Origin: Escherichia phage vB_EcoD_Fulano1
Length of the DNA: 51,759 bases
Direction: 5' to 3' (one strand)
Sequence record: OL539459.1
Below, piece by piece: positions 1 to 41,129 of the stretch (positions within the stretch are counted from its first letter, which is position 1; each line of letters opens with the position of its first letter). The translations under genes were made by a program, and so were the position numbers. The notes beneath the pieces were generated by a model. The model was given only the letters and a program-made list of their open reading frames with translations. It ran no database searches and was not told the origin of the DNA.

Positions 1-49
1 TGCCTGCAATTTGTCTATAATGATGCTTTGTTGTAAAGGAGGGCGCATT

Positions 50-571
50 ATGGCTAAAAACGTTGAGCCAGCAGTAAAGGCTTGCAATTTTAAAAAACTA
101 TATAATAAGCAATATGGCGATATTGCAAAAATGACAAAGGCGCACAAGTACACGCCGGAACAGGTATTTGATCTGGCTGTACGTTACTTTACGTGGGCGG
201 AGGAAAACCATATACAGGCTGCGGAAACGGCATCCTTTCAGGGTGACGTATACGAAAGCAAGATTCACAAGCCGCGAGTGTTCACCTTAAACGGATTCCG
301 ATTATTCGCTGGCCTTTCTGCTTCCGTACTTGAAAAATGGCGACGTGAGCCAGGATTCAGCGATGTTATGGACTTTATCGACGGCGTTGTTTACGAGCAA
401 AAATTCCAGCTTGCTGCAAACAATATTGTTAACGCCGGATTCATTGGTAAGGAGATCGGCATTGAAAAGCCAGCTACCGTTACCATTGAGAATAACACAA
501 GCGCCAGCGTTGACGCTGTAACGGCGGAGGAAGTCAAAGAGGCGGTAATTGACATTCTGGAGAAGATATAA
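50..571 (+). CDS. terminase small subunit (T1-like)
   Basis: ORF track 11..571 trimmed to ATG 50 behind RBS AAGGAGGG (36-43); stop overlaps start of large terminase (ATGA at 571); size and position typical of TerS. Confidence 0.5.
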   Translation: MAKNVEPAVKACNFKKLYNKQYGDIAKMTKAHKYTPEQVFDLAVRYFTWAEENHIQAAETASFQGDVYESKIHKPRVFTLNGFRLFAGLSASVLEKWRREPGFSDVMDFIDGVVYEQKFQLAANNIVNAGFIGKEIGIEKPATVTIENNTSASVDAVTAEEVKEAVIDILEKI

Positions 572-2139
572 TGCTGATTTGGGAAGACTTAACAGCGGCG
601 CAAAAACGCGCCGTTAAGGAAATGAGCGAATATTCATTCGAAAAGATGATCCGCATTTGGTTTCAATTATTGCAAGGTCAGAAATTCTTAGGAAACTGGC
701 ATTTTAGCTACCTATGCAGCGAAGTTGAAAAAATCATCAAAGGAGAGTCACAGAATGTAATTTTCAACATAACGCCAGGCAGCGGTAAAACAGAGATATT
801 CTCGATCCATATGTCACCTTATGCGTCATTGAAAAGTAAGAAGGTGAGAAATCTCAATTTGTCGTTTAGTGATGGCCTTGTCCAGCAGAATAGCAACCGC
901 ATCAAAGAGATTATTGGTTCTCCAGAATGGCAGGAGCTATGGCCTGGAAAGCTGGCAAAGGCGAGCGCAAAGGATTTGATTGTAACCGATGGCGGCAAGG
1001 TTAAATTGCAAGTTAACTCGCGTTCTATCGGTGGTCAGGTTACTGGTCTGCGTGGAGGCTACATGGACGATGGCTTTACTGGTATGCTGGTTCTTGATGA
1101 TCCAGACAAGCCGGATGACATGCTTTCTAAGGTGAAGCGCGAAGCCGGACACATGCGCCTAAAGAACACGGTTCGATCGCGTCGAATGAAGGACACCACG
1201 CCAATTGTGATGGTTCAGCAACGCCTACACGTCAATGATTCAACATGGTTCATGACAAACGGAGGTATGGGCGGCATCCAGTTTAAGGTGGTTAGTATTC
1301 CGGCGCTCGTTACTAAGGAATATCGCGAAACTCTTCCTGATTGGTTAAGGCATGAGTTTGATCGCGATGTTTTGTCCAGCAAGCCAGTAATGATTGATGG
1401 AGTTGCTCATTATTCATTCTGGCCTGCTAAGGAAAGCGCGGAGGAATTACTTGCACTTCGCAATGCTGATCCGTACACGTTCGCTAGTCAGTATCAGCAA
1501 CAGCCTGTTGCGCTTGGCGGTAACGTGTTTAAAACAGAGTGGTTTCAGTATTACGGCAGCAGCGAGAAATGCACGCTACCAAAACCGGATCGCTTTGAAT
1601 ATACATTTATCACGGTTGATACCGCACAGAAAACAGGGGAGCTTAACGACTACTCCGTGATCTGTTATTGGGGGATGTATAAAGATCGCGTTTACTTCAT
1701 TGATGGTGTTCGCGGAAAATGGGAAGCACCAGACCTTGAGACTAATTTTGTTGCGTTCGTTAATCAGTGCTGGAAGCGCAATAAAGAATGCGGAACGTTG
1801 CGAAGGATTCATGTTGAAGATAAATCGTCTGGCACTGGTTTGATTCAGAGTGCAGCGAAAAAAATAATGATCAAGATCAATCCCGTTCAGCGTGATAAAG
1901 ACAAGGTTACTCGCGCAATGGACGCAGCGCCAGTAATGCGCGCCGGACGCGTAGCACTTCCAGAATCGCATCATATGCTGGCTGAGATACTTGCGGAGGT
2001 TGCGGCTTTTGCTTATGATGATTCAGCGCCACACGATGATATTGTGGATACTATAATTGACGCTGTAAACATTGAGCTTAACCTTGCTGATGATGCCGTT
2101 GGTCGAATGAAAAAATTGGCAGGTTTGCGGAACAAATAG
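571..2139 (+). CDS. terminase large subunit
   Basis: 522 aa; P-loop PGSGKT near N-terminus; acidic C-terminal half (DDSAPHDDIVDT) consistent with nuclease domain; first large gene of structural module. Confidence 0.8.
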   Translation: MLIWEDLTAAQKRAVKEMSEYSFEKMIRIWFQLLQGQKFLGNWHFSYLCSEVEKIIKGESQNVIFNITPGSGKTEIFSIHMSPYASLKSKKVRNLNLSFSDGLVQQNSNRIKEIIGSPEWQELWPGKLAKASAKDLIVTDGGKVKLQVNSRSIGGQVTGLRGGYMDDGFTGMLVLDDPDKPDDMLSKVKREAGHMRLKNTVRSRRMKDTTPIVMVQQRLHVNDSTWFMTNGGMGGIQFKVVSIPALVTKEYRETLPDWLRHEFDRDVLSSKPVMIDGVAHYSFWPAKESAEELLALRNADPYTFASQYQQQPVALGGNVFKTEWFQYYGSSEKCTLPKPDRFEYTFITVDTAQKTGELNDYSVICYWGMYKDRVYFIDGVRGKWEAPDLETNFVAFVNQCWKRNKECGTLRRIHVEDKSSGTGLIQSAAKKIMIKINPVQRDKDKVTRAMDAAPVMRAGRVALPESHHMLAEILAEVAAFAYDDSAPHDDIVDTIIDAVNIELNLADDAVGRMKKLAGLRNK

Positions 2140-2153
2140 CACGAATCGACAAA
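2136..2153 (+). promoter_or_regulatory. recurrent element, variant ATAGCACGAATCGACAAA
   Basis: overlaps TerL stop TAG; TATATAAT follows. Confidence 0.3.
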
Positions 2154-2168
2154 CCAATATATAATCAA

Positions 2169-2193
2169 AGGCTGGTGAATCCAGCCTTTTTTA
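2169..2193 (+). terminator. intrinsic terminator
   Basis: stem AGGCTGG/CCAGCCT, loop TGAAT, T-run. Confidence 0.6.
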
Positions 2194-2207
2194 TTGGAGG
2201 AAAGATA

Positions 2208-3488
2208 ATGAGTAAATCACGAATCGTTAAGGCTGATGGCTATAACGAGATCTTTAAAGGCGAGAATTGCAAATCGCGAGTAGAGCAACCATTCTACATG
2301 CAATCAATGCCATACAAGACACTTGCTGACTTTTACGAAAAAGACGGCCTGGCAAAAAGGGTTATTGACGTAGTACCAGAGGAAATGGTTTCCCCTGGCT
2401 TCACGGTTGACGGCGTGGCAGACGAGGCAGCATTCCGTTCTTTGTGGGATGAGAAGCGATTGAATGCAAAAATTATTGATGCGCTTTGCTGGTCGCGTTT
2501 GTTTGGCGGATCTGCAATCATTGCTCTTGTTCAGGATGGGCGGGCGCTCAAATCACCTGTAAAGCCTGGTGCCACGCTGGAAGACGTGCGCGTTTACGAT
2601 CGTTATCAGATTCGCGTTGAAGCGCGAGAAACAAATCCCCGCAAGGTTCGCTATGGTGAGCCAGTGCTTTACACTGTAACGCCAGGAGGAGACTTGCCGG
2701 AATACCAGGTACACTACACGCGCGTTTGCATTATCGACGGTGAGCGGATACCTAACGCAAAGCGACGCAGCAATGACGGCTGGGGTGAGTCAGTTCTTAA
2801 CAAGCGGCTTGTTGAGGCTATTGTTGATTATAACTATTGTGAAACATTAGCTACGCAATTATTGCGAAGAAAACAACAGGCAGTATGGAAGGCCAAAGGT
2901 CTTGCTGACTTGTGCGATGATGAGGAGGGTGTTAGCGCGGCACGCTTGAGACTTGCGCAGGTTGACGACGAGGGCGGCGTTGGCAAGGCCATTGGTATTG
3001 ATGCTGAGGATGAGGAATATGATGTTCTTAACTCTGACATTAGCGGCGTTGATTCTTTTCTGGAAAAGAAAATGGATCGCATCGTTTCCCTTTCAGGTAT
3101 TCATGAAATCATCCTGAAAAATAAAAACGTTGGCGGAGTTAGCGCAAGCCAAAACACGGCGCTTGAAACATTCTATAAACTTATTGAGCGAAAACGCGTC
3201 GAGGATTACAAGCCTATCCTTGAATTTCTATTGCCGTTCATCATTAGTGAGCAGGAATGGAGCATTGAGTTTTCACCTTTGAGCGTACCTAGCGATAAAG
3301 ATCAGGCTGAAATTCTGAATAAGAATATCGACTCAATCAGCAAGGCTATTGATGGTCAGTTCCTTGATGTTGAAGAAGCGCGCGACACGTTGCGAGCAAT
3401 CGCACCAAGCGTTAAACTAAAGGACACCAATAAAATCAAGCTGCCGGAGCCAACTGAGCCGGAGCCAGGCACACAGGGGAATGAGTAA
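2208..3488 (+). CDS. portal protein
   Basis: ORF track 2175..3488 trimmed to ATG 2208 behind GGAGG (2196-2200); ~430 aa gene directly after terminase, acidic C-terminus; position-based call. Confidence 0.65.
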   Translation: MSKSRIVKADGYNEIFKGENCKSRVEQPFYMQSMPYKTLADFYEKDGLAKRVIDVVPEEMVSPGFTVDGVADEAAFRSLWDEKRLNAKIIDALCWSRLFGGSAIIALVQDGRALKSPVKPGATLEDVRVYDRYQIRVEARETNPRKVRYGEPVLYTVTPGGDLPEYQVHYTRVCIIDGERIPNAKRRSNDGWGESVLNKRLVEAIVDYNYCETLATQLLRRKQQAVWKAKGLADLCDDEEGVSAARLRLAQVDDEGGVGKAIGIDAEDEEYDVLNSDISGVDSFLEKKMDRIVSLSGIHEIILKNKNVGGVSASQNTALETFYKLIERKRVEDYKPILEFLLPFIISEQEWSIEFSPLSVPSDKDQAEILNKNIDSISKAIDGQFLDVEEARDTLRAIAPSVKLKDTNKIKLPEPTEPEPGTQGNE

Positions 3489-4252
3489 TGAAAGTGAAGG
3501 GCGTCGTTAAACAATGGCGCTTTCCTGAAGCAAGCGAGCGGCAATTTAGCCGCTCAATTCAGGAGGCAATTAGAGAACTTGTAGTTCTCATGCGCAAGCG
3601 AACAAAAGCGATGAAGTTTGATGCAACAGATAATGAGATCAACAGCGCAGAAGATGAAATTAACAGCCTGGCAACTGACCTTATAGCTGGCATTGTTTCA
3701 ACTCTTCCCGCAATCGCGTTGACAATTTATAAATTCAATGCGAAGCAGTTTATCAATGTTGCCAAGTCAACTGGCGGAAAGGATAATACGGCGGTAATTG
3801 TTTTGATCGCGGTTGGCGCTAACGCTAACGAGGACTGGTATCAGACGCTATACGGTCAATGGCACGGGCTTACAGAATCATCGCTAAGGAAGTTATTCAC
3901 AAACATTGTTTCTGATTGGTCAACAAACATTCGAAATGCAAACTTTCGCGGAAGCAATGATAAACAGGTTAATGATCTTGCAGAAAAGAGATTTGCTGTT
4001 TATAGCTCTTGGGGTAAAACGAGATCAGAAAACATTATCGGCGCGTGGAATAGTCGCCTGATGCGCCAGCGCCTTTATGATGCTAAGGTGACTCATTATT
4101 TCTGGCATGGAATGTTAGATGATAGAGAGCGATTGCAGCATGTGTTATGGGAAGGTAAAAGAATAGCGCTTGATGCAATTCATGATTTCCCTGGTGAGCC
4201 GTGGGGTTGCCGTTGCTGGGCGATTCCAGATTGGAATAATAAAGGAGAGTAA
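3488..4252 (+). CDS. head morphogenesis / minor capsid protein (SPP1 gp7 / Mu F-like)
   Basis: 254 aa, start overlaps portal stop (TAATG); position after portal. Confidence 0.5.
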   Translation: MKVKGVVKQWRFPEASERQFSRSIQEAIRELVVLMRKRTKAMKFDATDNEINSAEDEINSLATDLIAGIVSTLPAIALTIYKFNAKQFINVAKSTGGKDNTAVIVLIAVGANANEDWYQTLYGQWHGLTESSLRKLFTNIVSDWSTNIRNANFRGSNDKQVNDLAEKRFAVYSSWGKTRSENIIGAWNSRLMRQRLYDAKVTHYFWHGMLDDRERLQHVLWEGKRIALDAIHDFPGEPWGCRCWAIPDWNNKGE

Positions 4253-4255
4253 TTA

Positions 4256-5368
4256 ATGAAGGCAAAACAAAGATTTGATAGCGTCCAGGTTAAGGCGCAT
4301 TTTGATGATAATGGCTTTTTAGTGGATCGCCCAATTGTGGCGCGAATTGGTTTGCAGGAGTACCGCACACCGTATGGAATCAGACGAGAGTTCCGACCAG
4401 CGTCAGAAGTGTTTAAGGCGGATTCGCTTGCTACGTTCGCAGGCAAGCCGATCACTATCGGTCACGTCACAGTGACGCCAGATAATGCGGATCAGGTTGT
4501 TGTTGGTTCATGCGCTGGTGCTGGTGTTCCAAATGGTGTTGGCGTTGAAGTTCCGTTAAGTATTTACTCAAAGCGAGCAATTGAGAGCGCAAAAAAGAAA
4601 GACACGGCGGAAATTTCAGTTGGTTACACATCAATTGATATTGATAAACCAGGTTGGGGTAATAATAAAACTGGCGATTACTTGTTTGAGGAAGACATTA
4701 AGGAAGACTGGAAGCCTGATTCCCCTGATTGGGTTAAATTTGACGCCATTCAGACGAATATCCGTGTTAATCACATTGCACTTGTCTTTCGTGGTCGTGC
4801 TGGCATTGCCAAATTAAATCTTGATAGTGAACAAGATTTTCCGTATAGTGACGAGGTTCTAAATGACAAAGGAGATGAGGAAATGACAGTAAAAATTAAA
4901 CTTGATGGCGCGGTAGAATTTGATGTTCCAAAGGCCGTTGCTGATCATATTGAGGCGTTAAAGGCAGATGCAAAAGCTGCAACAGAAAAAGCTGATGGCC
5001 TTGAGGCCGAGCGCGACGCCCTGAAAACTAAAGTCGATGGCATTCCGGCGCAGATTGCAGAAGCTGTTAAGAAGGCAAAGACTGACGCAGAAGAGCACGC
5101 CAAGCTAGTTGCAGATGCAACTGAAATTGGCATCAAGTGTGACGGCTTGGATGCTAAAGCGATCAAAGTTGCTTACGTCAAAGAAGTCACTGGCGCTGAT
5201 ATTTCAGAAAAAGCCGATGCATATATTGAAACAGCTTTTGACCTTGCGAAGCAGTCTGATAAAATGGCGGCGCAGCGTAAATCTGTTAAGGGCGATTCTT
5301 TCGGGTCTGGCAAGAATGAAAAAACCGACTCCCTTGATCCGACTGCGCGTTTGAAAAAACTTAAATAA
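4256..5368 (+). CDS. putative capsid scaffold-like protein
   Basis: 370 aa; globular N-terminal half followed by long Ala/Lys/Glu-rich coiled-coil-like C-terminal half; lies between head morphogenesis gene and capsid gene. Confidence 0.45.
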   Translation: MKAKQRFDSVQVKAHFDDNGFLVDRPIVARIGLQEYRTPYGIRREFRPASEVFKADSLATFAGKPITIGHVTVTPDNADQVVVGSCAGAGVPNGVGVEVPLSIYSKRAIESAKKKDTAEISVGYTSIDIDKPGWGNNKTGDYLFEEDIKEDWKPDSPDWVKFDAIQTNIRVNHIALVFRGRAGIAKLNLDSEQDFPYSDEVLNDKGDEEMTVKIKLDGAVEFDVPKAVADHIEALKADAKAATEKADGLEAERDALKTKVDGIPAQIAEAVKKAKTDAEEHAKLVADATEIGIKCDGLDAKAIKVAYVKEVTGADISEKADAYIETAFDLAKQSDKMAAQRKSVKGDSFGSGKNEKTDSLDPTARLKKLK

Positions 5369-5380
5369 GGAGAAATAAAC

Positions 5381-5893
5381 ATGGCTACAATTGGAGCAAG
5401 TTATTTTGCTGTAATGTCTCGTGCGTTACCTGGTCAGGTTTCTGACACTTCAGCTTATAATATTGATGGCGCTTGTGTTCTTGAGAATGCGGCAGGCAAT
5501 CAGAATCAGTCTGTTTTTGTTGGTGTGGCGGTCCAGCATGGCGGCGTTGATGCGATGGGTAATAAACTGATCAAGCCTATGGCGGCAAGCGGCAAGGCTT
5601 ACGGTGTTGCAATTCGATCCCACTTCCAGACGACTTCGGCTGACGGTCGAATGATTTATGAGTCTGGCGGCGGAATCAACGTAATGACTGAGGGGCGTGT
5701 TTGGATGTTGGCTAAAGACGCTTCCGCGCCAGCGTTCGGCACTACAATCAAGCTGTCTAATGATGGTCAGGTTGATACAGGGTCTGGCACTATCGAAACA
5801 AACTGGATCGCAACTGGTGACTTTACCGAGTTTCAAGACTTGAAGCTGGTAGAGGTTCAGGTGCAAAAAGTTCCGGCAGTTTCTGCTGGTTAA
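5381..5893 (+). CDS. capsid-associated structural protein, paralog 1 (decoration-like)
   Basis: 170 aa; shares motifs VGVAV and GRVWxL...DAxAPxxG...G(D/N)WIxTG with the next gene; RBS AAGGAG upstream. Confidence 0.4.
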   Translation: MATIGASYFAVMSRALPGQVSDTSAYNIDGACVLENAAGNQNQSVFVGVAVQHGGVDAMGNKLIKPMAASGKAYGVAIRSHFQTTSADGRMIYESGGGINVMTEGRVWMLAKDASAPAFGTTIKLSNDGQVDTGSGTIETNWIATGDFTEFQDLKLVEVQVQKVPAVSAG

Positions 5894-5900
5894 TAAATAT

Positions 5901-5924
5901 GGCGCTCACTGAGCGCCTTTTTTA
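5901..5924 (+). terminator. intrinsic terminator
   Basis: stem GGCGCTC/GAGCGCC then T6. Confidence 0.7.
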
Positions 5925-5938
5925 TATTTGGAGTTATC

Positions 5939-6373
5939 ATGAGTGATTATTCAGTCATTGTTGGCGCTGAGTCGCCAGGGTGCATGGTCGATTCTTCAAT
6001 AATGGTGATTAACGGATCTTTCGTGTGCGGAGATGAATTTATTGAGCCAGGTAAGATTGTGCGACTATCACATATAACAAGTGGATACAAAATAGCAAGT
6101 GTTAATGGGGATCTTGTTATTGGCGTGGCGGTAAGGCCACCGGACTCGTGTATATATGAGGAAGGAGATCCAGTTAATGTAGCAAGTCTAGGCAGGGTGT
6201 GGTGCTTAACGCCTGAGAGAGATGCTCCAGAATACGGAGATAAGGTGTTTGTAACGCAAGATGGTGATGCGTCATACAGTGAAGGCGACTTACTGAGCGG
6301 TTGGATCTTTACTGGCGAACATGTAAAGGTTGATCATGATTCATATATTGTCGGGGTAAGCATTAGCGCATAA
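5939..6373 (+). CDS. capsid-associated structural protein, paralog 2
   Basis: 144 aa; paralogous to 5381..5893 (IGVAV, LGRVWCL, GWIFTGE); preceded by terminator and RBS. Confidence 0.4.
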   Translation: MSDYSVIVGAESPGCMVDSSIMVINGSFVCGDEFIEPGKIVRLSHITSGYKIASVNGDLVIGVAVRPPDSCIYEEGDPVNVASLGRVWCLTPERDAPEYGDKVFVTQDGDASYSEGDLLSGWIFTGEHVKVDHDSYIVGVSISA

Positions 6374-6392
6374 CACAAAATTATGTTGCACG

Positions 6393-6410
6393 TTTAACAA
6401 AAAATGCTAT
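6393..6410 (-). promoter_or_regulatory. recurrent element (reverse orientation) TTTAACAAAAAATGCTAT
   Basis: upstream of major capsid gene but antisense to it. Confidence 0.3.
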
Positions 6411-6456
6411 CATTGGGGCGTTACATACTAACAGCCTTTATATATGGAGGAAGAAA

Positions 6457-7431
6457 ATGGAAAAAGAAAAATTTGATCAGCTAGATGCGGATATTGTTTC
6501 TAGCCATCTGGCTACTCGCGGCGTTAAGGGTGATGCTTCTGATATGGGTATCTGGACGGCGCAAGAGCTTCACAAGATCCGCTCAACTGCTTACGAGAAA
6601 GAGTATCCGGCAGGTTCAGCGCTTCGTGTGTTCCCTGTAACTAATGAGCTTTCTGATACTGATAAGACTTTTGAATATCAGATGTTTGACAAGGTTGGTT
6701 ACGCAAAAATTATCGCTGATTACACCGACGATCTGCCAACTGTTGACGCTTTAATGTCAAGCGAGTTTGGCAAGGTGTTCCGCCTGGGTAACGCGTTCTT
6801 GATCTCCATTGACGAAATCAAGGCTGGTCAGCGCACTGGTAAGAGCCTTTCCACTCGCAAGGCAAACGCAGCGCAAAACGCTCATGATCAGGAAGTTAAC
6901 CGCCTGGTGTTTAAGGGTTCAAAGCCGCATAAGATTATTTCGGTGTTTGAACACCCTAACCTGACAAAGATCGTGTCAACTGGATGGTTGAGCAACGATG
7001 AGAACACCAAGTTCCCCGAGACGGCTTCGGACGATCTTGAAAAGGCGATCGAAACCATCGAGAAGATCACGAATGGTCAGCACCGCGCAACCAATATCCT
7101 GATCCCGCCGTCAATGCGCAAGGTTCTTTCCGTTCGAATGGAAAACACCACTGAAAGTTATCTGGAATACTTCCAGAAACAAAACAGCGGAATCACCATC
7201 GACTCAATCGCAGAGCTTGAGGATATTGATGGCACTGGAACGAAAGGTTGCCTGGTATATGAGAAAGACCCGATGAACATGTCGATCGAAATTCCAGAAG
7301 CATTTAACATGCTTCCTGCGCAACCAAAAGATCTGCATTTCAAAGTTCCGTGTACTTCAAAATGTACTGGCCTGACGATTTACCGTCCGTTTACGCTAGT
7401 TCTTATTACTGGCTTGAAAAAATCAGGTTAA
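6457..7431 (+). CDS. major capsid protein
   Basis: 324 aa; RBS GGAGGA; followed by strong terminator; position and size typical of T1-like major capsid protein. Confidence 0.7.
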   Translation: MEKEKFDQLDADIVSSHLATRGVKGDASDMGIWTAQELHKIRSTAYEKEYPAGSALRVFPVTNELSDTDKTFEYQMFDKVGYAKIIADYTDDLPTVDALMSSEFGKVFRLGNAFLISIDEIKAGQRTGKSLSTRKANAAQNAHDQEVNRLVFKGSKPHKIISVFEHPNLTKIVSTGWLSNDENTKFPETASDDLEKAIETIEKITNGQHRATNILIPPSMRKVLSVRMENTTESYLEYFQKQNSGITIDSIAELEDIDGTGTKGCLVYEKDPMNMSIEIPEAFNMLPAQPKDLHFKVPCTSKCTGLTIYRPFTLVLITGLKKSG

Positions 7432-35100: not shown

Positions 35101-35588
35101 TGAGTATAAAACAAAGAGTGACCGCTGCGGCTTTTGGCGTTGCTCTTGCCCTTACTTCTCCGCTACTGGAGGAAATAGAAGGAGTAAAACATAAGCCGTA
35201 CAAAGATATTGCTGGGATATGGACGGTTTGCGCCGGAATAACTGGACCTGACGTAATACCAAGTAAAACGTACACACAGAGAGAGTGCGATGCGCTACTG
35301 GCAAAGCATATCAAGATCGCAAAGGATGAAGTTGATAAACGTGTGAAGGTTGAGATTCCTGATACAATGCGCGCGGCAATGTATTCATTCACATACAATG
35401 CTGGCACTGGTGCTTTCAGAAATTCAACCATGCTTAAGCTGATTAATAAAGGACGTTACATGGAAGCGTGCGATCAGTTATGGCGATGGACAAAATACAC
35501 CAATCCAAAAACAGGAAAGAAAGAAACGTCTAAAGGACTGCGCAACCGCCGCGCTGTGGAATTTAAATATTGCATTAAGGATCTGTAA
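35100..35588 (+). CDS. endolysin (lysozyme, probable SAR type)
   Basis: catalytic triad E-x8-D-x5-T ([16 protein letters not shown]); N-terminal hydrophobic Gly/Ala-rich segment resembles signal-anchor-release domain. Confidence 0.8.
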
Positions 35589-35590
35589 TT

Positions 35591-35989
35591 ATGAGAAAGC
35601 TATCAGCAATCGCGATCGCTGTTATTTTGTCTGGATGTTCAAGCGTTATGCCACTGACCGGATTAATCGGTAGTAAGCCGGAAATCACAGCACAGGCAGG
35701 AGCGGAGAACGTAAAGCAGACCGTTGGCGTTACCGCAAAGCAGGACACCAGCACGAAACAGGAAACTACAATAAAGGAATCTGCGGTTGATAAGGTGGAC
35801 ACTTCCAGCAAGAAGGATTTCACTACGTCAACCATTCAGGCTAACACCATCAAGGCCGATAAAATCCAGGTCGTGCAGGGGGAGCAAAGGAAGTGGTACG
35901 ATCCTATAATCTATTGCGCTGCAATTTTCAGTGGTCTTTTGACTATGCTTTACTTTTCCTACCGCAAAGATAACAAAAAGGAGGCTTAA
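35591..35989 (+). CDS. unimolecular spanin (u-spanin)
   Basis: lipoprotein signal MRKLSAIAIAVILSGC plus C-terminal transmembrane helix; architecture of the T1 gp11 u-spanin. Confidence 0.7.
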   Translation: MRKLSAIAIAVILSGCSSVMPLTGLIGSKPEITAQAGAENVKQTVGVTAKQDTSTKQETTIKESAVDKVDTSSKKDFTTSTIQANTIKADKIQVVQGEQRKWYDPIIYCAAIFSGLLTMLYFSYRKDNKKEA

Positions 35990-36004
35990 CGCCTCCTTTG
36001 TTAT
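35980..36004. terminator. bidirectional terminator after lysis cassette
   Basis: stem GGAGGC/GCCTCC, T-rich on both sides. Confidence 0.55.
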
Positions 36005-36243
36005 TCGATACGCTTTACAGTAACCAACAAAACGCCGTCCTCATCACACAAATTATGCTCTGATATGTTAAACGCTCGCATGTCAGAATGAATGAGCGTT
36101 AACATTGCGTGCATGAAGTCGCCATGTGAGATTTGAGAAGTAGCGCAAAACTTAAGAATTTCATCTATCAGTTTACTTTCCATGATTTTCATGATAACCA
36201 AGTTTAGCCTCTGCTTGTTCTCTTGCCATAATTGCATCATCAA
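36001..36243 (-). CDS. hypothetical protein
   Basis: 80 aa ORF, overlaps 3' end of HNH gene. Confidence 0.3.
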   Translation of the reverse strand: MMMQLWQENKQRLNLVIMKIMESKLIDEILKFCATSQISHGDFMHAMLTLIHSDMRAFNISEHNLCDEDGVLLVTVKRIE

Positions 36244-36646
36244 TGCTTGAAAATAATCCTAAATGAATACTCTTACCTTTATCATATATGGTTGCATGCC
36301 ATTTTTTTTCTTTCTTCCTCCAGCACACTCCAACCCTACCAGATTTATTTCTTTTTAGTAGAGATACGTTTTTGCTGTTCTCTAATCTTGATGCAAGCCT
36401 TAAATTTTCAATCCTGTTATCCAACCTATTGTGCCATATATGATCTATCTCCATTCCTTCTGGTATTTTTCCATTGTGCATTTCCCATATTATCCTATGC
36501 GCCAAAAGCAATACACCATTATACCTTATTCTTACATAGCCATTTTTATCTACACATCCAGCAACGCTTCCTGGCTTTGCTTTTCCCCTTCTGTTTCTCC
36601 ATCTCAATATTCCATTGTCATATATAAATATTTTATTCCAATCCAT
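36173..36646 (-). CDS. HNH homing endonuclease (HNH + AP2-like domain), copy 1
   Basis: motifs HRIIWEMHNG, IDHIWHNRLDNRIENLRL and AP2-like C-terminal segment. Confidence 0.75.
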   Translation of the reverse strand: MDWNKIFIYDNGILRWRNRRGKAKPGSVAGCVDKNGYVRIRYNGVLLLAHRIIWEMHNGKIPEGMEIDHIWHNRLDNRIENLRLASRLENSKNVSLLKRNKSGRVGVCWRKKEKKWHATIYDKGKSIHLGLFSSIDDAIMAREQAEAKLGYHENHGK

Positions 36647-37025
36647 ATCTTTTCCTTAGAGCTTCTATTTGTTGTCTATTAGCATTTGACGTAAACAATT
36701 CTTCATCGCTCATTTCTCCGATCCTTAAAACATCCCTTACCCATTCGTTTTGCATACCTTCCAGGCTGTAAAGTTCAAACGAGAATGGGCGATTTGCTGA
36801 TCCTTTCTTACACCAGAACTTTCCACCAACTCCATCAAGATAACCAGCGGTCATCATTCTTGAGCAAAATTCTTTTGAAACGGCAGTTGCAAACATCCTC
36901 GGCGTAAATCCTGCGGCCCTTGCGAGCCGCTCACATTCTCTATGCTGAAATATAAATTTCGCTATATGTTGACGTGTAAAATAGTCAAAGGATTCGCACC
37001 ACCTATATAGGTCAAGAATAAACAA
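36633..37025 (-). CDS. hypothetical protein
   Basis: 130 aa ORF wedged between two HNH genes. Confidence 0.4.
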   Translation of the reverse strand: MFILDLYRWCESFDYFTRQHIAKFIFQHRECERLARAAGFTPRMFATAVSKEFCSRMMTAGYLDGVGGKFWCKKGSANRPFSFELYSLEGMQNEWVRDVLRIGEMSDEELFTSNANRQQIEALRKRYGLE

Positions 37026-37028
37026 AAC

Positions 37029-37502
37029 TTATCCCCCGTGATTTTTGTGATAGCCAAGTTTTTCTTCTGCTAGTTTTCTTGCGTCTATAGCGTCACTTAT
37101 ATCTAAAAATCTCCCAAGATGTTTTATTCCATTATCTGTCTTTATCTGCGCCTTCCACTTGCCAGAGTAATTATCAAAGTAAACGCCAGTTACACCAGAT
37201 CTATTATTTTTTGATCTTGATTTGTTTTTACTATTCTCCTTGCATGTTACAAGCCTCAAGTTTTCTATCCTGTTATCGGTTCTTATGTGATTTATGTGAT
37301 CTATCTGCATTCCATCAGGAATATCTCCGTTAAACATTTCCCAAACTATCCTATGCACTCTCCTGAATCTATATCCTACATTAACCTGCAAGTATCCATC
37401 AGGTAGCATCCTACCAGCAGGCTCTCCAGCCTTGACGCGACCATAACTACGCTTCCAACGAAGTATTCCATTGTCATAATCAAAAACATCATGCCAATTC
37501 AT
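37029..37502 (-). CDS. HNH homing endonuclease, copy 2
   Basis: paralog of copy 1: NGILRW, HRIVWEMFNG, IDHINH...DNRIENLRL. Confidence 0.75.
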   Translation of the reverse strand: MNWHDVFDYDNGILRWKRSYGRVKAGEPAGRMLPDGYLQVNVGYRFRRVHRIVWEMFNGDIPDGMQIDHINHIRTDNRIENLRLVTCKENSKNKSRSKNNRSGVTGVYFDNYSGKWKAQIKTDNGIKHLGRFLDISDAIDARKLAEEKLGYHKNHGG

Positions 37503-37506
37503 AAAG

Positions 37507-39090
37507 TTACCCCAGCAATGTTGGATTTACGAAAACAACGCCATTAATCACACAAATATAATTTCTTTCTTCAAGCATCGGCAGCAGTTGCGTTTCCATA
37601 CGCTTCATTACGCCAGCCTGACCAACAAACGGCTTAACTTTTCGTGCAGCCTCATATATGGCGCGCACATTCAAGATCCCCTTGTTAGCCTTACCGTGTC
37701 GAGTGATAATCTCGATTAGTTTACCCATTTCAGCATCATCACCAGCATAGCCAGAAGCGTTTGCGGCGCTAATGTATGTTTTGCTCAACTCGCTAAACAT
37801 CAGTAGTGCTTCCTGAACGGTTTCAACCTCAATCTCTTTCGACTTTTGAGGGTATCCGCCAGGATTAAACCAATTGCGGATAGTGTGCAAAACCGAAGCA
37901 ATTCTGATCACCTGCTTATCCATTTTGCCAAGCGCGCCGCGCAGCATTGTATGAGAATACTTTCCGCCATCGGCAAGGTGCGGTTCCATCTCCTGACGAG
38001 CCATGTTAAGCACTCGCATTGCTGATTTGCTGATCTTAAGCTGGATGTTTGATTCGCTCATTATGTTATGGATCAGCTTAAAATATTGGCTTTTCAGTTC
38101 TCCATCAACAGGCTCATAAGTCGAATCACCGTTATCATCAACAAACTTTCGACGACCTAAAAATGATTCCTCACGCACAAGCAAATAACGCTCACTTACA
38201 CCGATACCGCGTGATCCTGCGTCCATGATGGCATTGATTGTTTCATCCTGGGCAATTACCGCCATGCAGCCAAGAGCTTTAAAACTCATATTGTTGTCAG
38301 CGTTTGCACGAGCTATAGAAACATGACCATGATCCCATGCTTTTAGCACAAGTTCGCTGTTTGTTTTGCGTTCGCTATTGGCATATGTCAGGCCTAAAAG
38401 GCTGTTAATACTCGTTGCCTCGTCTGAAATTACAGCAAAGTTACCCTGGCGATTGTTGATTCTTGCAAGTCCTTCAGGCGTGGTGTCTGAAACAGGGAAA
38501 ACAATGTCACACATCTTTTCCAGCTTTTCTTCAAGATCTTCTTTCTCCTGGTATAGCGATTCCATATCAGCGCCAGATCGCTCGCTTTTCATCTCTTTTG
38601 CAAGACCTGCCAACTTTGCCTGAATCTTTTTTCGTTCCTTCTTTCGCTGATCATTAATTCTTTCTACCTCAGCAACCATAGGAGCAAGTGCCAGGCTGTT
38701 AACGGCAGATTTACCAGTTGAAGGAGGCTGACTTGTAACAACGTAAAGAGCAGTTGGTTGATCCGTTCCGTGATACTCAACCGTGAAGCGTCCAAGCATT
38801 GCAGCAGACACGCAGCCGATAAAATGCATATATGCCGATGATTCAGGGAACTGAACTGATCGAGCAATGTTGCGCGCCAACTTACCAACAACATCAACAT
38901 CATTGCCAAGAGAAATTATAGGGTAGCGATCGTTTCCGTTATTAACATCATTAACCTCACCCCAAAAGCTGGACGATTGACGGTATCCGTTTGCCTGAAT
39001 GGACACGCGCACCGGAGATAATCCTTGTGCATCAGCTAATTCGATAATTTGTTTTGGTGTTAGTTTATTGGTTTCAAACGAAAAATTCAT
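37507..39090 (-). CDS. P-loop NTPase (putative replication/helicase-like ATPase)
   Basis: 527 aa; Walker A PPSTGKS, Walker B-like VISDEATS; function not resolved. Confidence 0.4.
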   Translation of the reverse strand: MNFSFETNKLTPKQIIELADAQGLSPVRVSIQANGYRQSSSFWGEVNDVNNGNDRYPIISLGNDVDVVGKLARNIARSVQFPESSAYMHFIGCVSAAMLGRFTVEYHGTDQPTALYVVTSQPPSTGKSAVNSLALAPMVAEVERINDQRKKERKKIQAKLAGLAKEMKSERSGADMESLYQEKEDLEEKLEKMCDIVFPVSDTTPEGLARINNRQGNFAVISDEATSINSLLGLTYANSERKTNSELVLKAWDHGHVSIARANADNNMSFKALGCMAVIAQDETINAIMDAGSRGIGVSERYLLVREESFLGRRKFVDDNGDSTYEPVDGELKSQYFKLIHNIMSESNIQLKISKSAMRVLNMARQEMEPHLADGGKYSHTMLRGALGKMDKQVIRIASVLHTIRNWFNPGGYPQKSKEIEVETVQEALLMFSELSKTYISAANASGYAGDDAEMGKLIEIITRHGKANKGILNVRAIYEAARKVKPFVGQAGVMKRMETQLLPMLEERNYICVINGVVFVNPTLLG

Positions 39091-39143
39091 TGATGATAAC
39101 TCCTTTTTTGATGCGGCAATAATACCGCACCAATGCTACCCGC

Positions 39144-39162
39144 ATTTAACAAAAAATGCTAT
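39144..39162 (-). promoter_or_regulatory. recurrent element ATAGCATTTTTTGTTAAAT
   Basis: overlaps stop TAG of HNH copy 3; hairpin with TATTAT loop; then RBS AAAAGGAG and ATG 39090. Confidence 0.45.
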
Positions 39163-39659
39163 ACGCCATGATTCTTGTGAAATGAGAAATCTTTCTGAGC
39201 TGTTTTTCTGGCAGTTTCTGCTTCATGTATCGACTCATACCGCCCTAAACTTACGTTTTTACCATTAATTTGAATTTGTGCCCTCCACTTTCCAGTTTGT
39301 TTGCAGAATGTAACTCCAGTCACCCCGCTTGAATTATTTATCTGAACAGACTTGTTCATATTGTTTTCAAGCCTTGTTACCAGCCTTAGATTTTCAATCC
39401 TGTTGTCTGCGCGATTGTGGTTAATGTGATCAACCTCCATGTTTGGCGGAATGTCTCCATTGTGCATAATCCAAACAATTCTATGCGCCAGGTATTTCCT
39501 GCCAAAAATACCAATAGAAATATACCCATTACCTTTTTCGCAGCCAGCTATGAAACCTATTTTATTCTTCTTTCCTGTATTGACCCTCCATATCAAATAT
39601 CCATCTTTGTATTCAAACAGCCTCAAAAGTATTTCGCTTGAAATTTTGCAGTTGCACAT
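39159..39659 (-). CDS. HNH homing endonuclease, copy 3
   Basis: HRIVWIMHNG, VDHINHNRADNRIENLRL, AP2-like tail; RBS GGAGGG. Confidence 0.75.
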   Translation of the reverse strand: MCNCKISSEILLRLFEYKDGYLIWRVNTGKKNKIGFIAGCEKGNGYISIGIFGRKYLAHRIVWIMHNGDIPPNMEVDHINHNRADNRIENLRLVTRLENNMNKSVQINNSSGVTGVTFCKQTGKWRAQIQINGKNVSLGRYESIHEAETARKTAQKDFSFHKNHGV

Positions 39660-40006
39660 TCGAAACCCTCCTCGCAGCGATATAGAGTAAAGCGATCACC
39701 TTGTTCATCGTAAACATACCCAGCAACAGCGCCAAGCACTCTACCACTTTCCACTTGATACCTATTTCCTTGCTTGAAAGTTTTCTTAACGCTAAGAGAA
39801 TGGTCAACGTAAGTGCAAAGTATTGTTTTTGTCTTGATGTGACGATAGTCAGACTCAACAACGTTTTGCCACTTGCTACCCTTTGTAATGCTCTTTACCT
39901 GGAATTGTTCCAACTCGATCACATCATCGCTACCAGCAATTTTTTCGTATACAGCTTTATAACGACCGTCCATCAAAACGTTGGTTTTATTGCAGATAAC
40001 TTTCAT
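39623..40006 (-). CDS. hypothetical protein
   Basis: 127 aa, RBS AAAGGAG; promoter-like element upstream. Confidence 0.4.
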   Translation of the reverse strand: MKVICNKTNVLMDGRYKAVYEKIAGSDDVIELEQFQVKSITKGSKWQNVVESDYRHIKTKTILCTYVDHSLSVKKTFKQGNRYQVESGRVLGAVAGYVYDEQGDRFTLYRCEEGFECATAKFQAKYF

Positions 40007-40062
40007 CGTTTATTTCTCCTTTCGTTTCGGTGAAGTGATTATGCCAGGCTTTTACACCTGGC

Positions 40063-40081
40063 TTTTAACAAAAAGTGCTAT
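40063..40081 (-). promoter_or_regulatory. recurrent element ATAGCACTTTTTGTTAAAA
   Basis: overlaps stop TAG of methyltransferase gene; hairpin GCCAGG..CCTGGC then CATAAT then ATG 40006. Confidence 0.45.
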
Positions 40082-40788
40082 TTTGCGTTAGCTTCAAAGA
40101 CTGCGCGGGCAAAACCGCGCGGGGTTAGGGAGCGGATCATCTTTGTGCGAGATGATTTTCCGCCAGTTTTGGCCCAGCCTGGATTATCTTTGTCATTCTC
40201 TTTCGGCAGGATTAAAGCGCGCGGAGGAATAACAAATCCGTTTCCAGTCCAAAGGCATGTTTTCTTAAAGTACCGATCCCGCGCCGGAATAATATCAGGG
40301 AAGTCGGGATGCTTATCATCTTCCGGCAGATAGCCAGCATAATCGCACGGATGGAACGTATAATCAGGCTTACGCCATAACGTTGACAGCTTGCCTACAG
40401 GATTTTCGATCATGTAAGGAACGCCGAAATAATCAGCGATATGCGCCGCGATTCTGCAAGTGTCGGCGGCCTCATCCTGGAAAGAGGGATTCTCAAGGCG
40501 TTTTTTGGACCAATGGCGAGATCCGCTATTTGCAAGGTCAGTGCACGGCGGAAATGCCATAATGAAATCAGGCTTACCCCAATTTTCAAGTTTTGCGGTA
40601 TATTTGAATAGCTCATCAATCCACACATTAACGTAAAAAATATTATCATGGATTATGCGCACTGATTGGTAATCTCCGTGATCGGCATCATCGTAATTAA
40701 AGCAAATGCATTTATATCCAGCATCAGCCCAATCTTTAACGGCTTTACCAGATCCATCAAACAAAGAGAATATTAAACCTTTATACAT
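40078..40788 (-). CDS. DNA cytosine-5 methyltransferase (Dcm-like)
   Basis: motif I LFDGSG, motif IV FPPCTD, motif VI ENPVG. Confidence 0.6.
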   Translation of the reverse strand: MYKGLIFSLFDGSGKAVKDWADAGYKCICFNYDDADHGDYQSVRIIHDNIFYVNVWIDELFKYTAKLENWGKPDFIMAFPPCTDLANSGSRHWSKKRLENPSFQDEAADTCRIAAHIADYFGVPYMIENPVGKLSTLWRKPDYTFHPCDYAGYLPEDDKHPDFPDIIPARDRYFKKTCLWTGNGFVIPPRALILPKENDKDNPGWAKTGGKSSRTKMIRSLTPRGFARAVFEANAK

Positions 40789-40797
40789 TTCATCACC

Positions 40798-41022
40798 TCA
40801 AAACGGAAAGCATCTAGGACAGTTCGGATCAAAATTGCAACCACAATCATTAACAATCATAGTTGGATCTGCAAATGCAGCGCCGCATTCATGGTCCATA
40901 TCCATTTCACCCAACGCATCATCAAGCGTCCTGATTTTATATGCCACTTCAAGCGCTGCCTCTTTATTTAATCCGGCATCTTCAGCCATTTGCAGGCGCT
41001 CAAAAAATCCGTCCTGACTCAT
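40798..41022 (-). CDS. hypothetical Cys-rich protein
   Basis: 74 aa, C-terminal CGCNFDPNCPRC. Confidence 0.35.
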   Translation of the reverse strand: MSQDGFFERLQMAEDAGLNKEAALEVAYKIRTLDDALGEMDMDHECGAAFADPTMIVNDCGCNFDPNCPRCFPF

Positions 41023-41024
41023 TT

Positions 41025-41129
41025 CATAAACTCCTTGACAACAACCAGAATAATAACAAGACCAGCAGTGACAACCAAAAGACCAGCAAGGCCAATCATC
41101 ACTCCAAATAAAATATCAAGAAATTTCAT
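41025..41129 (-). CDS. hypothetical single-TM peptide
   Basis: 34 aa ORF not in track; RBS AAGGTG. Confidence 0.25.

What the first reader, a model, noticed from the sequence alone, without database searches (positions are those of the whole stretch)
36173..39659. Three paralogous HNH-AP2 endonuclease genes flank a P-loop NTPase gene; one may split a gene
HNH copies at 36173..36646, 37029..37502 and 39159..39659 share NGILRW, HRIVWEMxNG, DHINH-DNRIENLRL and an AP2-like tail. Copy 2 lies 4 nt after the stop of the P-loop gene and 3 nt before the start of ORF 36633..37025. That packing is what is seen when a free-standing homing endonuclease inserts into or between genes. ORF 36633..37025 could be the detached C-terminal part of the NTPase.
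Basis: partly seen in the sequence, partly recalled or inferred. Interest (0 to 1): 0.55.

Follow-up and report, generated by a model that had tools for sequence, protein, structure and literature searches.

The report
Three mobile HNH endonuclease genes around helicase
A T1-like coliphage carries three selfish "homing endonuclease" genes inserted between and into the ends of small genes around its helicase gene; this is a well-known kind of phage parasite, and the helicase itself is intact, not split.

Summary
The window is a T1-like phage (Drexlerviridae, Hanrivervirus). It has exactly three HNH_3+AP2 ORFs at the stated coordinates, 50-52% identical to each other, around a 527-aa DUF3987 "DNA helicase".

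In about 40 relatives without an HNH gene after the helicase, the helicase ends at the same residue. The 130-aa ORF ("YdbL") starts 2-14 nt later, in another frame in aalborv. All significant YdbL homologues are at most 158 aa. No intron RNA is detected.

The three genes are independently mobile free-standing homing endonuclease cassettes. Close relatives carry none, one, two or all three. The same lineage sits at the same junction in other genera. Different lineages also occupy the same site.

Each cassette brings recoded ends for its neighbours:
- Copy 2 is linked to a 45-nt, mostly synonymous rewrite of the ydbL 5' end, including ATG to TTG.
- Copy 1 sits inside the former 74-nt overlap of ydbL and the next gene. 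It carries two diverged copies of that overlap, one per reading frame.
- Copy 3 replaces a 73-aa gene exactly to its stop codon.

This is a known kind (HNH-AP2 endonucleases, "HEG-island") with new members. Interest is low to moderate.

The parts
39159..39659 (-). HNH3: free-standing HNH_3+AP2 homing endonuclease gene (166 aa). Its first 37 nt overlap the tail of the upstream gp62-like gene.
   Evidence: Pfam HNH_3 79 bits, AP2 29 bits. An identical protein sits at the same site in metagenome contigs L045/L046, which lack copies 1 and 2. The best match among deposited phages is only 52-54%.
39163..39676 (-). Site-3 cassette: 514 nt that replace 271 nt of the empty allele (aalborv L001 4070..4340). 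The replaced stretch includes the whole 73-aa gene gp63 and the last 19 codons of gp62.
   Evidence: Boundaries from blastn against L001. The TAG stop of HNH3 lies exactly where the TAG stop of gp63 lies in aalborv. The gp62 tail RCEEGFECATAKFQAKYF is shared with site-3-occupied phages of another genus (L016) but not with their HNH-free congener L012.
39623..40006 (-). gp62-like gene (127 aa, phrog_2684, function unknown). Its C-terminal tail is supplied by the site-3 cassette.
37507..39090 (-). DUF3987 P-loop protein annotated 'DNA helicase' (527 aa). It is complete, not split.
   Evidence: Pfam DUF3987 E 1.8e-43. phrog_2373 'DNA helicase' is matched over positions 2-515 of 515. Same length and stop in HNH-free relatives.
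37029..37502 (-). HNH2: free-standing HNH_3+AP2 homing endonuclease gene (157 aa), inserted exactly between the helicase stop and the ydbL start.
   Evidence: Pfam. The insert is window 37036..37499 relative to aalborv. A 97% homologue (L042) and a 68% homologue in a phage with 79% helicase identity (L043) sit at the same junction. AF2 model pLDDT 90; top fold hit is I-HmuI 1U3E, with AP2 domains also matched.
36981..37025 (-). Recoded 5' tract of ydbL, linked to HNH2: 14 substitutions in 45 nt. Nine of them are synonymous and one changes the start codon from ATG to TTG. Probably the disrupted or immune form of the HNH2 target.
   Evidence: Against aalborv there are 14/45 mismatches here and 3/309 in the middle of the gene, Fisher p = 2e-11. 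The same tract is in L042 and L044 (HNH2+) and absent from all empty alleles.
36633..37025 (-). ydbL (130 aa, phrog_2794): an independent small gene restricted to T1-like phages, possibly winged-helix-like.
   Evidence: The AF2 model has pLDDT 88 and a self-contained fold; fold hits are weak only, E >= 0.4, to wHTH proteins.
36633..36671 (-). Recoded ydbL tail, the left copy of the former ydbL/gp65 overlap. It keeps the ydbL frame (..QQIEALRKRYGLE*) and contains the RBS and start of HNH1.
   Evidence: 22/39 mismatches against aalborv, Fisher p = 3e-21. The same tail is in BEK7 and tonnikala, which also carry HNH1.
36665..36706 (-). Remnant of the ancestral start of the gp65-like gene (ATG plus 12 codons, MKNCLRQMLIDNK*), now cut short by a stop codon.
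   Evidence: Read directly from the sequence and compared with aalborv gp65, MKNCLRQMLIDKILKF...
36173..36646 (-). HNH1: free-standing HNH_3+AP2 homing endonuclease gene (157 aa), inserted within the 74-nt overlap of ydbL and the gp65-like gene.
   Evidence: Pfam. The insert is window 36172..36657 relative to aalborv, with about 25 nt aligning on both sides. 98.9% nt identity in the BEK7 group and 89% in tonnikala (a different genus), at the same site.
36001..36192 (-). gp65-like gene (63 aa, phrog_9539). Its new start codon lies inside the 3' end of HNH1. Positions 36122..36171 are the right, recoded copy of the former overlap and keep only the gp65 frame (LIDEILKFCATSQISH).
   Evidence: The same 63-aa gene call is made in L044, and tonnikala gp12 overlaps its HNH gene in the same way.
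35977..35999 (-). Terminator-like hairpin that closes the leftward operon, between the convergent gp65-like and spanin genes.
   Evidence: Consensus scan: 9-bp stem followed by a T-run.

Best explanation
The three ORFs are separate, independently acquired free-standing homing endonuclease genes of the HNH(N)-AP2 / I-HmuI-like class. They sit in the leftward early/replication operon of a Hanrivervirus (T1-like) phage and bracket the intact DUF3987 helicase gene and the small gene ydbL.

Proposed mechanism, by analogy with characterised relatives: when this phage co-infects a cell with a relative lacking one of the genes, the enzyme acts on the empty allele. Its N-terminal beta-sheet plus HNH domain, together with the C-terminal AP2 domain, recognise a long site at or next to the empty junction and nick or cut it. 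Recombinational repair from the endonuclease-carrying genome then copies in the gene plus some flanking sequence. The carrier genome is protected because the site is interrupted and the adjoining coding sequence has been recoded.

Shown here: domain architecture and fold; conserved catalytic residues; base-precise presence/absence at three sites; independent assortment of the three genes; site fidelity of lineages across genera; lineage turnover at a site; and cassette-linked recoding of neighbouring gene ends. Copy 1 resolves a two-gene overlap into two single-frame copies. Copy 3 replaces a small gene.

Inferred, not shown: enzymatic activity, the exact target sites, nicking versus double-strand cutting, and super-Mendelian inheritance.
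For: Architecture:
- HNH_3 scores 76-82 bits.
- A family profile hits I-HmuI 1U3E at E 1.8e-7 and plant AP2 domains.
- The AF2 model (pLDDT 90) matches I-HmuI (probability 1.0) and AP2 domains at 1.5-1.7 A.
- D68, H69, N81 and N93 are invariant and N77 and N90 nearly invariant in 42 homologues.

Mobility, by which sites are occupied:
- None: aalborv, L004-L007, L036.
- Site 3 only, with a 100% identical HNH3: L045/L046.
- Sites 2 and 3: L042.
- Sites 1 and 3: BEK7.
- Site 1 only: tonnikala, a different genus.
- Site 2 with an unrelated lineage: pSf-1.
- All three: the window and L044.

Lineages and flanks:
- Lineages cluster by site: 87%, 67-97% and 57-93% identity within a site against 39-53% between sites. 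There are two clear replacements: pSf-1 gp17 at site 2 and the window's HNH3 at site 3.
- Flank recoding is tightly localised and linked to the cassettes.

Literature:
- HNN-AP2 genes are multi-copy and free-standing in T1, Rtp, T5 and Xp10-like phages (PMC2248197).
- Endonuclease genes bracket essential genes as 'HEG-islands', with turnover at fixed sites (PMC10448857).
- I-HmuI-like HNH genes cluster by insertion site and cause marker exclusion in Skunavirus (PMC12724721).
Against: - No activity data exist for any of these three proteins or for any T1-like HNH-AP2 enzyme that I could find.
- The AP2 hits are below Pfam's own threshold.
- The recoded flanks could be co-converted donor sequence rather than selected immunity changes. 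The two cannot be separated by sequence alone.
- The helicase 'cargo' is not visibly more conserved in carrier genomes than in empty ones. It is 98-100% identical at the protein level across Hanriverviruses regardless, so the island or drive aspect is unproven.
- Nucleotide conservation at the putative target sites is only a modest local peak.
Confidence: 0.85

Rival explanations
1. One reading: copy 2 interrupts a formerly continuous NTPase gene. ORF 36633..37025 would be its detached C-terminal exon or domain, rejoined by splicing (intron or intein) or working as a split protein.
For: Only the tight packing (4 nt and 3 nt) and the unusual TTG start of the downstream ORF.
Against: - In all 36 loci with no HNH gene after the helicase, the helicase ends at residue 526/527 and ydbL has its own start 2-14 nt later. 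In aalborv it is in a different frame.
- No YdbL homologue is longer than 158 aa, apart from one spurious repetitive hit with no Pfam match.
- The helicase matches its family profile end to end.
- YdbL folds as a self-contained domain, pLDDT 88.
- No intron family is detected in Rfam, and there is no room for a ribozyme.
- HNH2 has its own start and stop, so it is not an in-frame intein.
Confidence: 0.02
2. The three genes are products of local duplication of one resident HNH gene within this genome: ordinary paralogues, not separately acquired mobile elements.
For: They are clustered within 3.5 kb on the same strand with the same architecture, and are about equally distant from one another at 50-52%.
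Against: - Each has a much closer relative in another phage than in its own genome. HNH1 is 87% identical in protein to tonnikala's. HNH2 is 97% and 68% identical to L042 and L043. HNH3 is 100% identical to L045.
- Relatives carry every subset of the three.
- Nucleotide similarity between the copies is confined to the HNH core, at 66-73%.
Confidence: 0.04
3. The genes are domesticated rather than selfish. They would be kept because they benefit the phage, for example as AP2-type DNA-binding regulators, as nickases that help replication or recombination next to the helicase, or as weapons that exclude co-infecting relatives.
For: - AP2 domains are used by phage transcriptional silencers (bioRxiv 10.64898/2026.02.23.707548).
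- Marker exclusion by I-HmuI-like enzymes is documented (PMC12724721).
- The clustering around a replication gene is non-random. All three ORFs are intact here and in L044.
Against: - Most close relatives lack all three and are viable isolates, so none is needed.
- The catalytic motif is intact, which argues against a pure DNA-binding role.
- HNH1 is frameshifted in four BEK phages, the decay expected of a selfish gene after fixation.
- Exclusion of competitors is the same mechanism as homing seen from the phage's side, not a true alternative.
Confidence: 0.09

Closest known systems
I-HmuI (Bacillus phage SPO1; PDB 1U3E), the structural archetype of Pfam HNH_3
   Same: It is the only solved structure found by sequence (E 0.003 with the single sequence, 1.8e-7 with the profile) and the top fold hit. 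It has the same N-terminal beta-sheet DNA-binding region followed by an H-N-N type catalytic motif (DH..N..N).
   Different: I-HmuI is encoded inside a group I intron and has helical and HTH C-terminal DNA-binding modules. The window proteins are free-standing, have an AP2 domain instead, and are about 20% identical to I-HmuI. That I-HmuI is a strand-specific nickase comes from my own knowledge. Whether these enzymes nick or cut both strands is unknown.
HNN-AP2 free-standing endonucleases of T1, Rtp, T5 and the Xanthomonas phages Xp10/OP1/Xop411 (Magnani et al. 2004, cited in PMC2248197)
   Same: Same two-domain architecture, multiple copies per siphovirus genome, variable presence between relatives, and degenerate copies (compare the BEK7 frameshift).
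   Different: The Xoo-phage study found no conserved flanks and proposed sequence-independent spread. Here each lineage shows strict site fidelity and cassette-linked recoded flanks.
HEG-islands and IPA-HNH endonuclease genes of ICP1-like phages (Barth et al. 2023, PMC10448857)
   Same: Several endonuclease genes bracket an essential replication gene. Cognate sites are occupied by homologues, by unrelated genes of the same class, or are empty.
   Different: No excess nucleotide conservation of the bracketed cargo relative to the rest of the genome was demonstrated here. The window enzymes hit canonical HNH_3, unlike the divergent IPA-HNH group.
T4 MobE and Seg-type free-standing endonucleases (PMC2790892, PMC2988022)
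   Same: Intergenic insertion between conserved genes, intron-less homing with co-conversion of flanks, and protection of the carrier allele by target-site differences.
   Different: Different phage family. The Seg enzymes are GIY-YIG. MobE is an HNH enzyme but lacks an AP2 domain (from my own knowledge).
I-HmuI-like HNH endonucleases of lactococcal Skunavirus (PMC12724721)
   Same: Variable number and position per genome, phylogenetic clustering by insertion site, and an experimentally shown marker-exclusion effect.
   Different: Gram-positive host and unrelated insertion sites. AP2 tails were not compared here.

Membership tests
HNH(N)-AP2 / I-HmuI-like free-standing homing endonuclease | HNH_3 (PF13392) nuclease domain above the curated threshold | tested here: met
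   76.5, 82.2 and 79.3 bits against a cutoff of 24.8; phrog_99 'HNH endonuclease' E 3e-66.
HNH(N)-AP2 / I-HmuI-like free-standing homing endonuclease | Catalytic and metal-binding residues of the H-N-N motif (D-H ... N ... N) conserved | tested here: met
   D68, H69, N77, N81, N90 and N93 are invariant in the six-sequence alignment. In 42 homologues D68, H69, N81 and N93 are invariant and N77 and N90 at least 90% conserved. They align with the DH..N..N of I-HmuI.
HNH(N)-AP2 / I-HmuI-like free-standing homing endonuclease | C-terminal AP2-type DNA-binding domain | tested here: met
   Pfam AP2 is only sub-threshold (18-29 bits against 33.3). However, the family profile hits WRI1 (E 0.005) and TEM1. 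The AF2 model's three strands plus helix (residues 107-149) superpose on TEM1 and AtERF1 AP2 domains at 1.5-1.7 A, probability 1.00.
HNH(N)-AP2 / I-HmuI-like free-standing homing endonuclease | Free-standing gene with its own start, stop and RBS, not embedded in an intron or intein | tested here: met
   ORFs with their own ATG and stop and with SD-like sequences upstream. No Rfam intron.
HNH(N)-AP2 / I-HmuI-like free-standing homing endonuclease | Presence/absence polymorphism at a precise site among close relatives, and the same lineage at the same site in diverged genomes | tested here: met
HNH(N)-AP2 / I-HmuI-like free-standing homing endonuclease | Site-specific cleavage of the empty allele and super-Mendelian inheritance in mixed infection | not testable with these tools
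   Needs in vitro cleavage assays and phage crosses.
Intron- or intein-encoded endonuclease that splits a host gene | Host gene is continuous in relatives lacking the insert | tested here: not met
   Helicase and ydbL are separate genes in all 36 loci with no HNH gene after the helicase, in different frames in aalborv. No fused homologue exists in 5.8 billion or 1.84 billion protein searches.
Intron- or intein-encoded endonuclease that splits a host gene | Self-splicing RNA core, or an in-frame intein with splice-junction residues | tested here: not met
   No Rfam match at E <= 1 in 35500..40500. There are only 4 nt and 3 nt outside the ORF. The ORF has its own stop and start.
HEG-island (PMC10448857) | Two or more endonuclease genes bracketing an essential gene or module | tested here: met
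   HNH3 lies upstream and HNH2 immediately downstream of the helicase. HNH1 lies one gene further on.
HEG-island (PMC10448857) | Cargo unusually conserved at nucleotide level between otherwise diverged phages | tested here: inconclusive
   The gp62 tail travels with site-3 genes across genera. The helicase is equally conserved in empty and occupied Hanriverviruses.
HK97 gp74-type HNH packaging cofactor | HNH gene adjacent to the terminase and conserved in all relatives | tested here: not met
   The terminase-sized ORFs lie at 11..2139 (assigned from size, position and typical T1-like gene order), about 34 kb away. The genes are absent from most close relatives. The domain family is HNH_3.

The most novel reading that the evidence does not exclude
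The trio works as one composite mobile unit, a HEG-island that drives the helicase-ydbL replication module through Drexlerviridae. The cassettes are adapted to invade coding junctions without damage. Each carries replacement ends for its neighbours. Copy 1 has turned a 74-nt dual-coding overlap into two single-frame, heavily recoded copies that also serve as immunity to its own enzyme. The structural part of this is shown by the sequence. The drive, cooperation and immunity parts are not.
Probability: 0.3. Interest if true: 0.45.

Novelty: new member of a known kind. Interest (0 to 1): 0.25.

Why it matters
Mainly as a correction: the helicase should be annotated as intact, ydbL as an independent gene, and the three ORFs as mobile endonuclease genes.

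Beyond that, the locus is a clean natural series. Relatives with 0, 1, 2 or 3 cassettes are 96-99% identical in the shared DNA. That makes it a convenient system for three things:
- measuring intron-less homing and co-conversion in T1-like phages;
- mapping HNH-AP2 target sites from the recoded flanks;
- seeing how a selfish gene can enter overlapping genes by duplicating and recoding the overlap.

HNH2 and HNH3 are at most 56% identical to anything in deposited phage genomes, so they add new specificities to a family of potential nicking enzymes.

Tried and rejected
- Megablast of copy 2 against deposited phages found nothing, and copy 3 matched only over 33 nt. I therefore used tblastn and the protein and contig look-ups.
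- Sequence searches of solved structures with the helicase and with YdbL gave only chance-level hits.
- NCBIfam gave no hit for any of the five proteins.
- The fold search of the YdbL model gave only weak winged-helix-like hits (E >= 0.4), so its function stays open.
- A column-conservation profile across 33 loci with empty sites 1 and 2 showed only modest local peaks near those two sites. I do not use it as evidence.
- The promoter scan found fewer sigma-70-like sites than in shuffled sequence (10 against 15.2), so there is no evidence that the cassettes carry their own promoters.
- An HK97-type packaging HNH and a purely regulatory AP2 protein (CasPR-like) were considered and rejected on position, dispensability and the intact catalytic motif.
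- The one long hit of the YdbL profile (P0242, 2503 aa, nine repetitive stretches) has no Pfam domain and was dismissed.

Full report
**What the window is.** The region matches T1-like coliphages of the family Drexlerviridae, subfamily Tempevirinae, genus Hanrivervirus (BEK7, aalborv, pSf-1 and others) at 95-98% identity. No deposited phage covers more than 78% of window 35900..40100. The shortfall is the three HNH genes. The gene order is methyltransferase, gp62-like, HNH3, helicase, HNH2, ydbL, HNH1, gp65-like, all on the - strand. The operon converges on the lysis genes across a terminator hairpin.

**Checking the observation.** All coordinates, spacings and motifs are as described.
- The three ORFs hit Pfam HNH_3 at 76-82 bits, and AP2 below threshold.
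- They are 50-52% identical pairwise, E 1e-41 to 1e-52, and are the only such genes in the window.
- The AP2 tail is real. A 42-sequence profile hits I-HmuI (1U3E, E 1.8e-7) over residues 1-103 and the plant AP2 proteins WRI1 and TEM1 over residues 86-150.
- An AlphaFold model of copy 2 (pLDDT 90) has I-HmuI as its top fold hit. Its last three strands plus helix superpose on TEM1 and AtERF1 AP2 domains at 1.5-1.7 A.
- The D-H...N...N catalytic pattern is conserved in all three copies and across homologues.
- The 527-aa gene is a DUF3987 P-loop protein, annotated 'DNA helicase' in RefSeq relatives.

**Is a gene split by copy 2? No.**
- aalborv has no HNH gene in this region. Its helicase is also 527 aa with the same stop. 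The ydbL homologue is a separate 130-aa ORF whose ATG lies 2 nt after that stop, in a different frame.
- Thirty-eight IMG/VR loci spanning 64-100% helicase identity were fetched. Every one that contains the junction shows the helicase ending at residue 526/527 and ydbL starting just after it. A pattern scan of all fetched loci found the junction in 36 with no HNH gene after the helicase. ydbL starts 2-14 nt after the stop, with ATG in 35 and GTG in one.
- All 102 YdbL homologues among 5.8 billion proteins are 74-131 aa.
- An exhaustive profile search of 1.84 billion representatives gave 20 significant hits of at most 158 aa. The one other hit is a weak, repetitive 2503-aa protein with no Pfam domain.
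- The helicase matches its PHROG profile over positions 2-515 of 515, and YdbL has its own PHROG.
- YdbL models confidently as a self-contained helical domain with a beta hairpin (pLDDT 88). Fold hits are weak only and winged-helix-like.
- No Rfam family, intron or otherwise, matches 35500..40500. Seven nucleotides of non-ORF flank leave no room for a ribozyme.

**What the three genes are.** Each is a discrete cassette that is present or absent in near-identical genomes.

| Cassettes present | Genomes |
|---|---|
| none | aalborv, L004-L007, L036 |
| site 3 only, HNH3 100% identical | metagenome contigs L045/L046 |
| sites 2 and 3 (HNH2 at 97%) | L042 |
| sites 1 and 3 | BEK7 group |
| site 1 only (HNH1 89% nt) | tonnikala, genus Warwickvirus |
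| site 2, unrelated lineage (gp17, 46%) | pSf-1 |
| all three | the window and L044 (99.1% identical over 8.5 kb) |

- A 68% homologue of HNH2 sits at the same helicase/ydbL junction in a phage whose helicase is only 79% identical (L043).
- The identity matrix shows lineages clustering by site: 87% at site 1, 67-97% at site 2 and 57-93% at site 3, against 39-53% between sites.
- There are two replacements: pSf-1 gp17 at site 2 and the window's HNH3 at site 3. HNH3 shares with the BEK7-type site-3 enzymes only the first 12 residues, the part that overlaps the gp62 tail.
- This rules out recent intragenomic duplication. It is the pattern described for homing endonuclease turnover at fixed sites (PMC10448857).

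**Junction anatomy, read directly from aligned sequence.**

*Site 2.*
- The empty allele reads ...CTGGGGTAA-TT-ATGTTTCTTCTGGAT...
- The window reads ...CTGGGGTAA-CTTT-[HNH2]-GTT-TTGTTTATTCTTGAC...
- Against aalborv, the first 45 nt of ydbL carry 14 substitutions: nine synonymous, the ATG-to-TTG start change, and L3I, E14D and W15Y. The next 309 nt carry three. Fisher p = 2e-11.
- The helicase 3' end shows no such cluster (p = 0.5).
- The same tract and TTG start occur in the other HNH2 carriers, L042 and L044. pSf-1, whose site 2 holds the unrelated gp17, also has a TTG start but not the tract. None of the 36 empty-site alleles has a TTG start (35 ATG, one GTG).

*Site 1.*
- In empty alleles the ydbL tail and the gp65 head overlap by 74 nt in different frames.
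- In the window the insert lies inside that overlap, and the overlap is represented twice in diverged form.
- The left copy (36633..36671) keeps only the ydbL frame (QQIEALRKRYGLE*) and houses the RBS and ATG of HNH1. It leaves a 13-codon stump of the old gp65 start (36665..36706).
- The right copy (36122..36171) keeps only the gp65 frame (LIDEILKFCATSQISH, 10 of 13 residues conserved despite 15 changes in 39 nt). A new ATG lies inside the last codons of HNH1, giving ORF 36001..36192.
- Tonnikala and L044 are annotated or gene-called in the same way.
- So an insertion into coding sequence does exist in this region, but at copy 1, and both affected genes are restored by the cassette.

*Site 3.*
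- 514 nt replace 271 nt of the empty allele.
- The last 19 codons of gp62 are replaced by a tail that overlaps the HNH3 start.
- The 73-aa gene gp63 is gone, and the HNH3 TAG sits exactly at the position of the gp63 TAG.
- The replacement gp62 tail (RCEEGFECATAKFQAKYF) is shared with a site-3-occupied phage of another genus (L016) but not with its HNH-free congener L012. This indicates co-transfer of flank and endonuclease gene.

**Mechanism.** By homology with I-HmuI and by analogy with characterised free-standing phage endonucleases (T4 MobE and Seg enzymes, PMC2790892 and PMC2988022; Skunavirus I-HmuI-like enzymes with demonstrated marker exclusion, PMC12724721), the most likely working is intron-less homing. 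In mixed infection each enzyme nicks or cuts the empty allele near its junction, and recombinational repair copies in the cassette plus flanks. The carrier allele is immune because the site is interrupted and recoded. The architecture, the polymorphism, the site fidelity and the recoding are shown. The cleavage, the target sites and the biased inheritance are inferred. The bracketing of an essential replication gene by several such genes matches the 'HEG-island' description (PMC10448857). I could not show that the helicase itself is being driven, because it is 98-100% identical at the protein level in carriers and non-carriers alike.

**Comparison and novelty.** HNH(N)-AP2 endonuclease genes are long known as multi-copy, variable, sometimes decaying genes in T1, Rtp, T5 and Xp10-like phages (PMC2248197, citing Magnani et al. 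2004). The family is large: tblastn finds relatives in about 3000 to at least 4000 deposited phage records. HNH2 and HNH3 are at most 56% identical to anything in deposited phages but 97-100% identical to genes in metagenome assemblies. They are new members, not a new kind. The un-overlapping of two genes by copy 1 and the sharply bounded recoded tract next to copy 2 are neat, and I found no description of them in four full-text searches. They are still consequences of a known mechanism.

**Verdict.** The 'split NTPase' part is refuted. The finding is ordinary for this phage family, with some instructive detail. Interest 0.25.

Noticed in passing
L002 (BEK7) 1774..2246; compare window 36303..36313: The four BEK-group phages carry HNH1 at 98.9% nt identity, but with a 1-nt deletion in the A8 run between the HNH and AP2 parts (GAAAAAAAATGG becomes GAAAGAAATGG). 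This frameshifts the gene, which is annotated as a 128-aa 'homing endonuclease'. It is either a decaying copy or a homopolymer sequencing error.
   Followed up: partly
window 39091..39162, against L001 4066..4287: The conserved 73-aa gene gp63 (phrog_12725, function unknown) is missing from the window, from L044 and from L045/L046. It is replaced exactly to its stop codon by HNH3. BEK7 and L042 keep gp63 downstream of a different site-3 HNH gene.
   Followed up: partly
window 35990..36001, against L001 1604..1895: A 78-aa accessory gene (aalborv gp66), present between gp65 and the spanin gene in some relatives, is absent here. Only a bidirectional terminator-like hairpin (35977..35999) separates the convergent operons.
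   Followed up: no
window 36633..37025: The propagated annotation name 'YdbL' looks like an inherited label. The protein belongs to a small family seemingly restricted to T1-like phages: 21 hits among 1.84 billion representatives, 20 of them strong. Its confident model is four helices, a beta hairpin, then further helices, resembling winged-helix DNA-binding proteins only weakly. Its fixed position right after the helicase suggests a replication accessory role.
   Followed up: partly
L045/L046, against window 40046..41091: Metagenome relatives that share the identical HNH3 lack the Dcm-like methyltransferase gene (window 40078..40788). That gene is another presence/absence polymorphism next to the endonuclease cluster.
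   Followed up: no
L041 (Shigella phage 2019SD1, IMG/VR copy) 1800..6600: Pieces of helicase, ydbL, HNH1, gp62 and methyltransferase appear scrambled on both strands. This is either a heavily rearranged genome or a misassembly seeded by the repeated HNH sequences.
   Followed up: no
GenBank records MG065636, MG065638, MG065675 and others: Several records named 'Campylobacter phage' (host given as C. jejuni) are 92-96% identical to this E. coli T1-like phage region. They probably reflect contaminating coliphages or mislabelled hosts.
   Followed up: no
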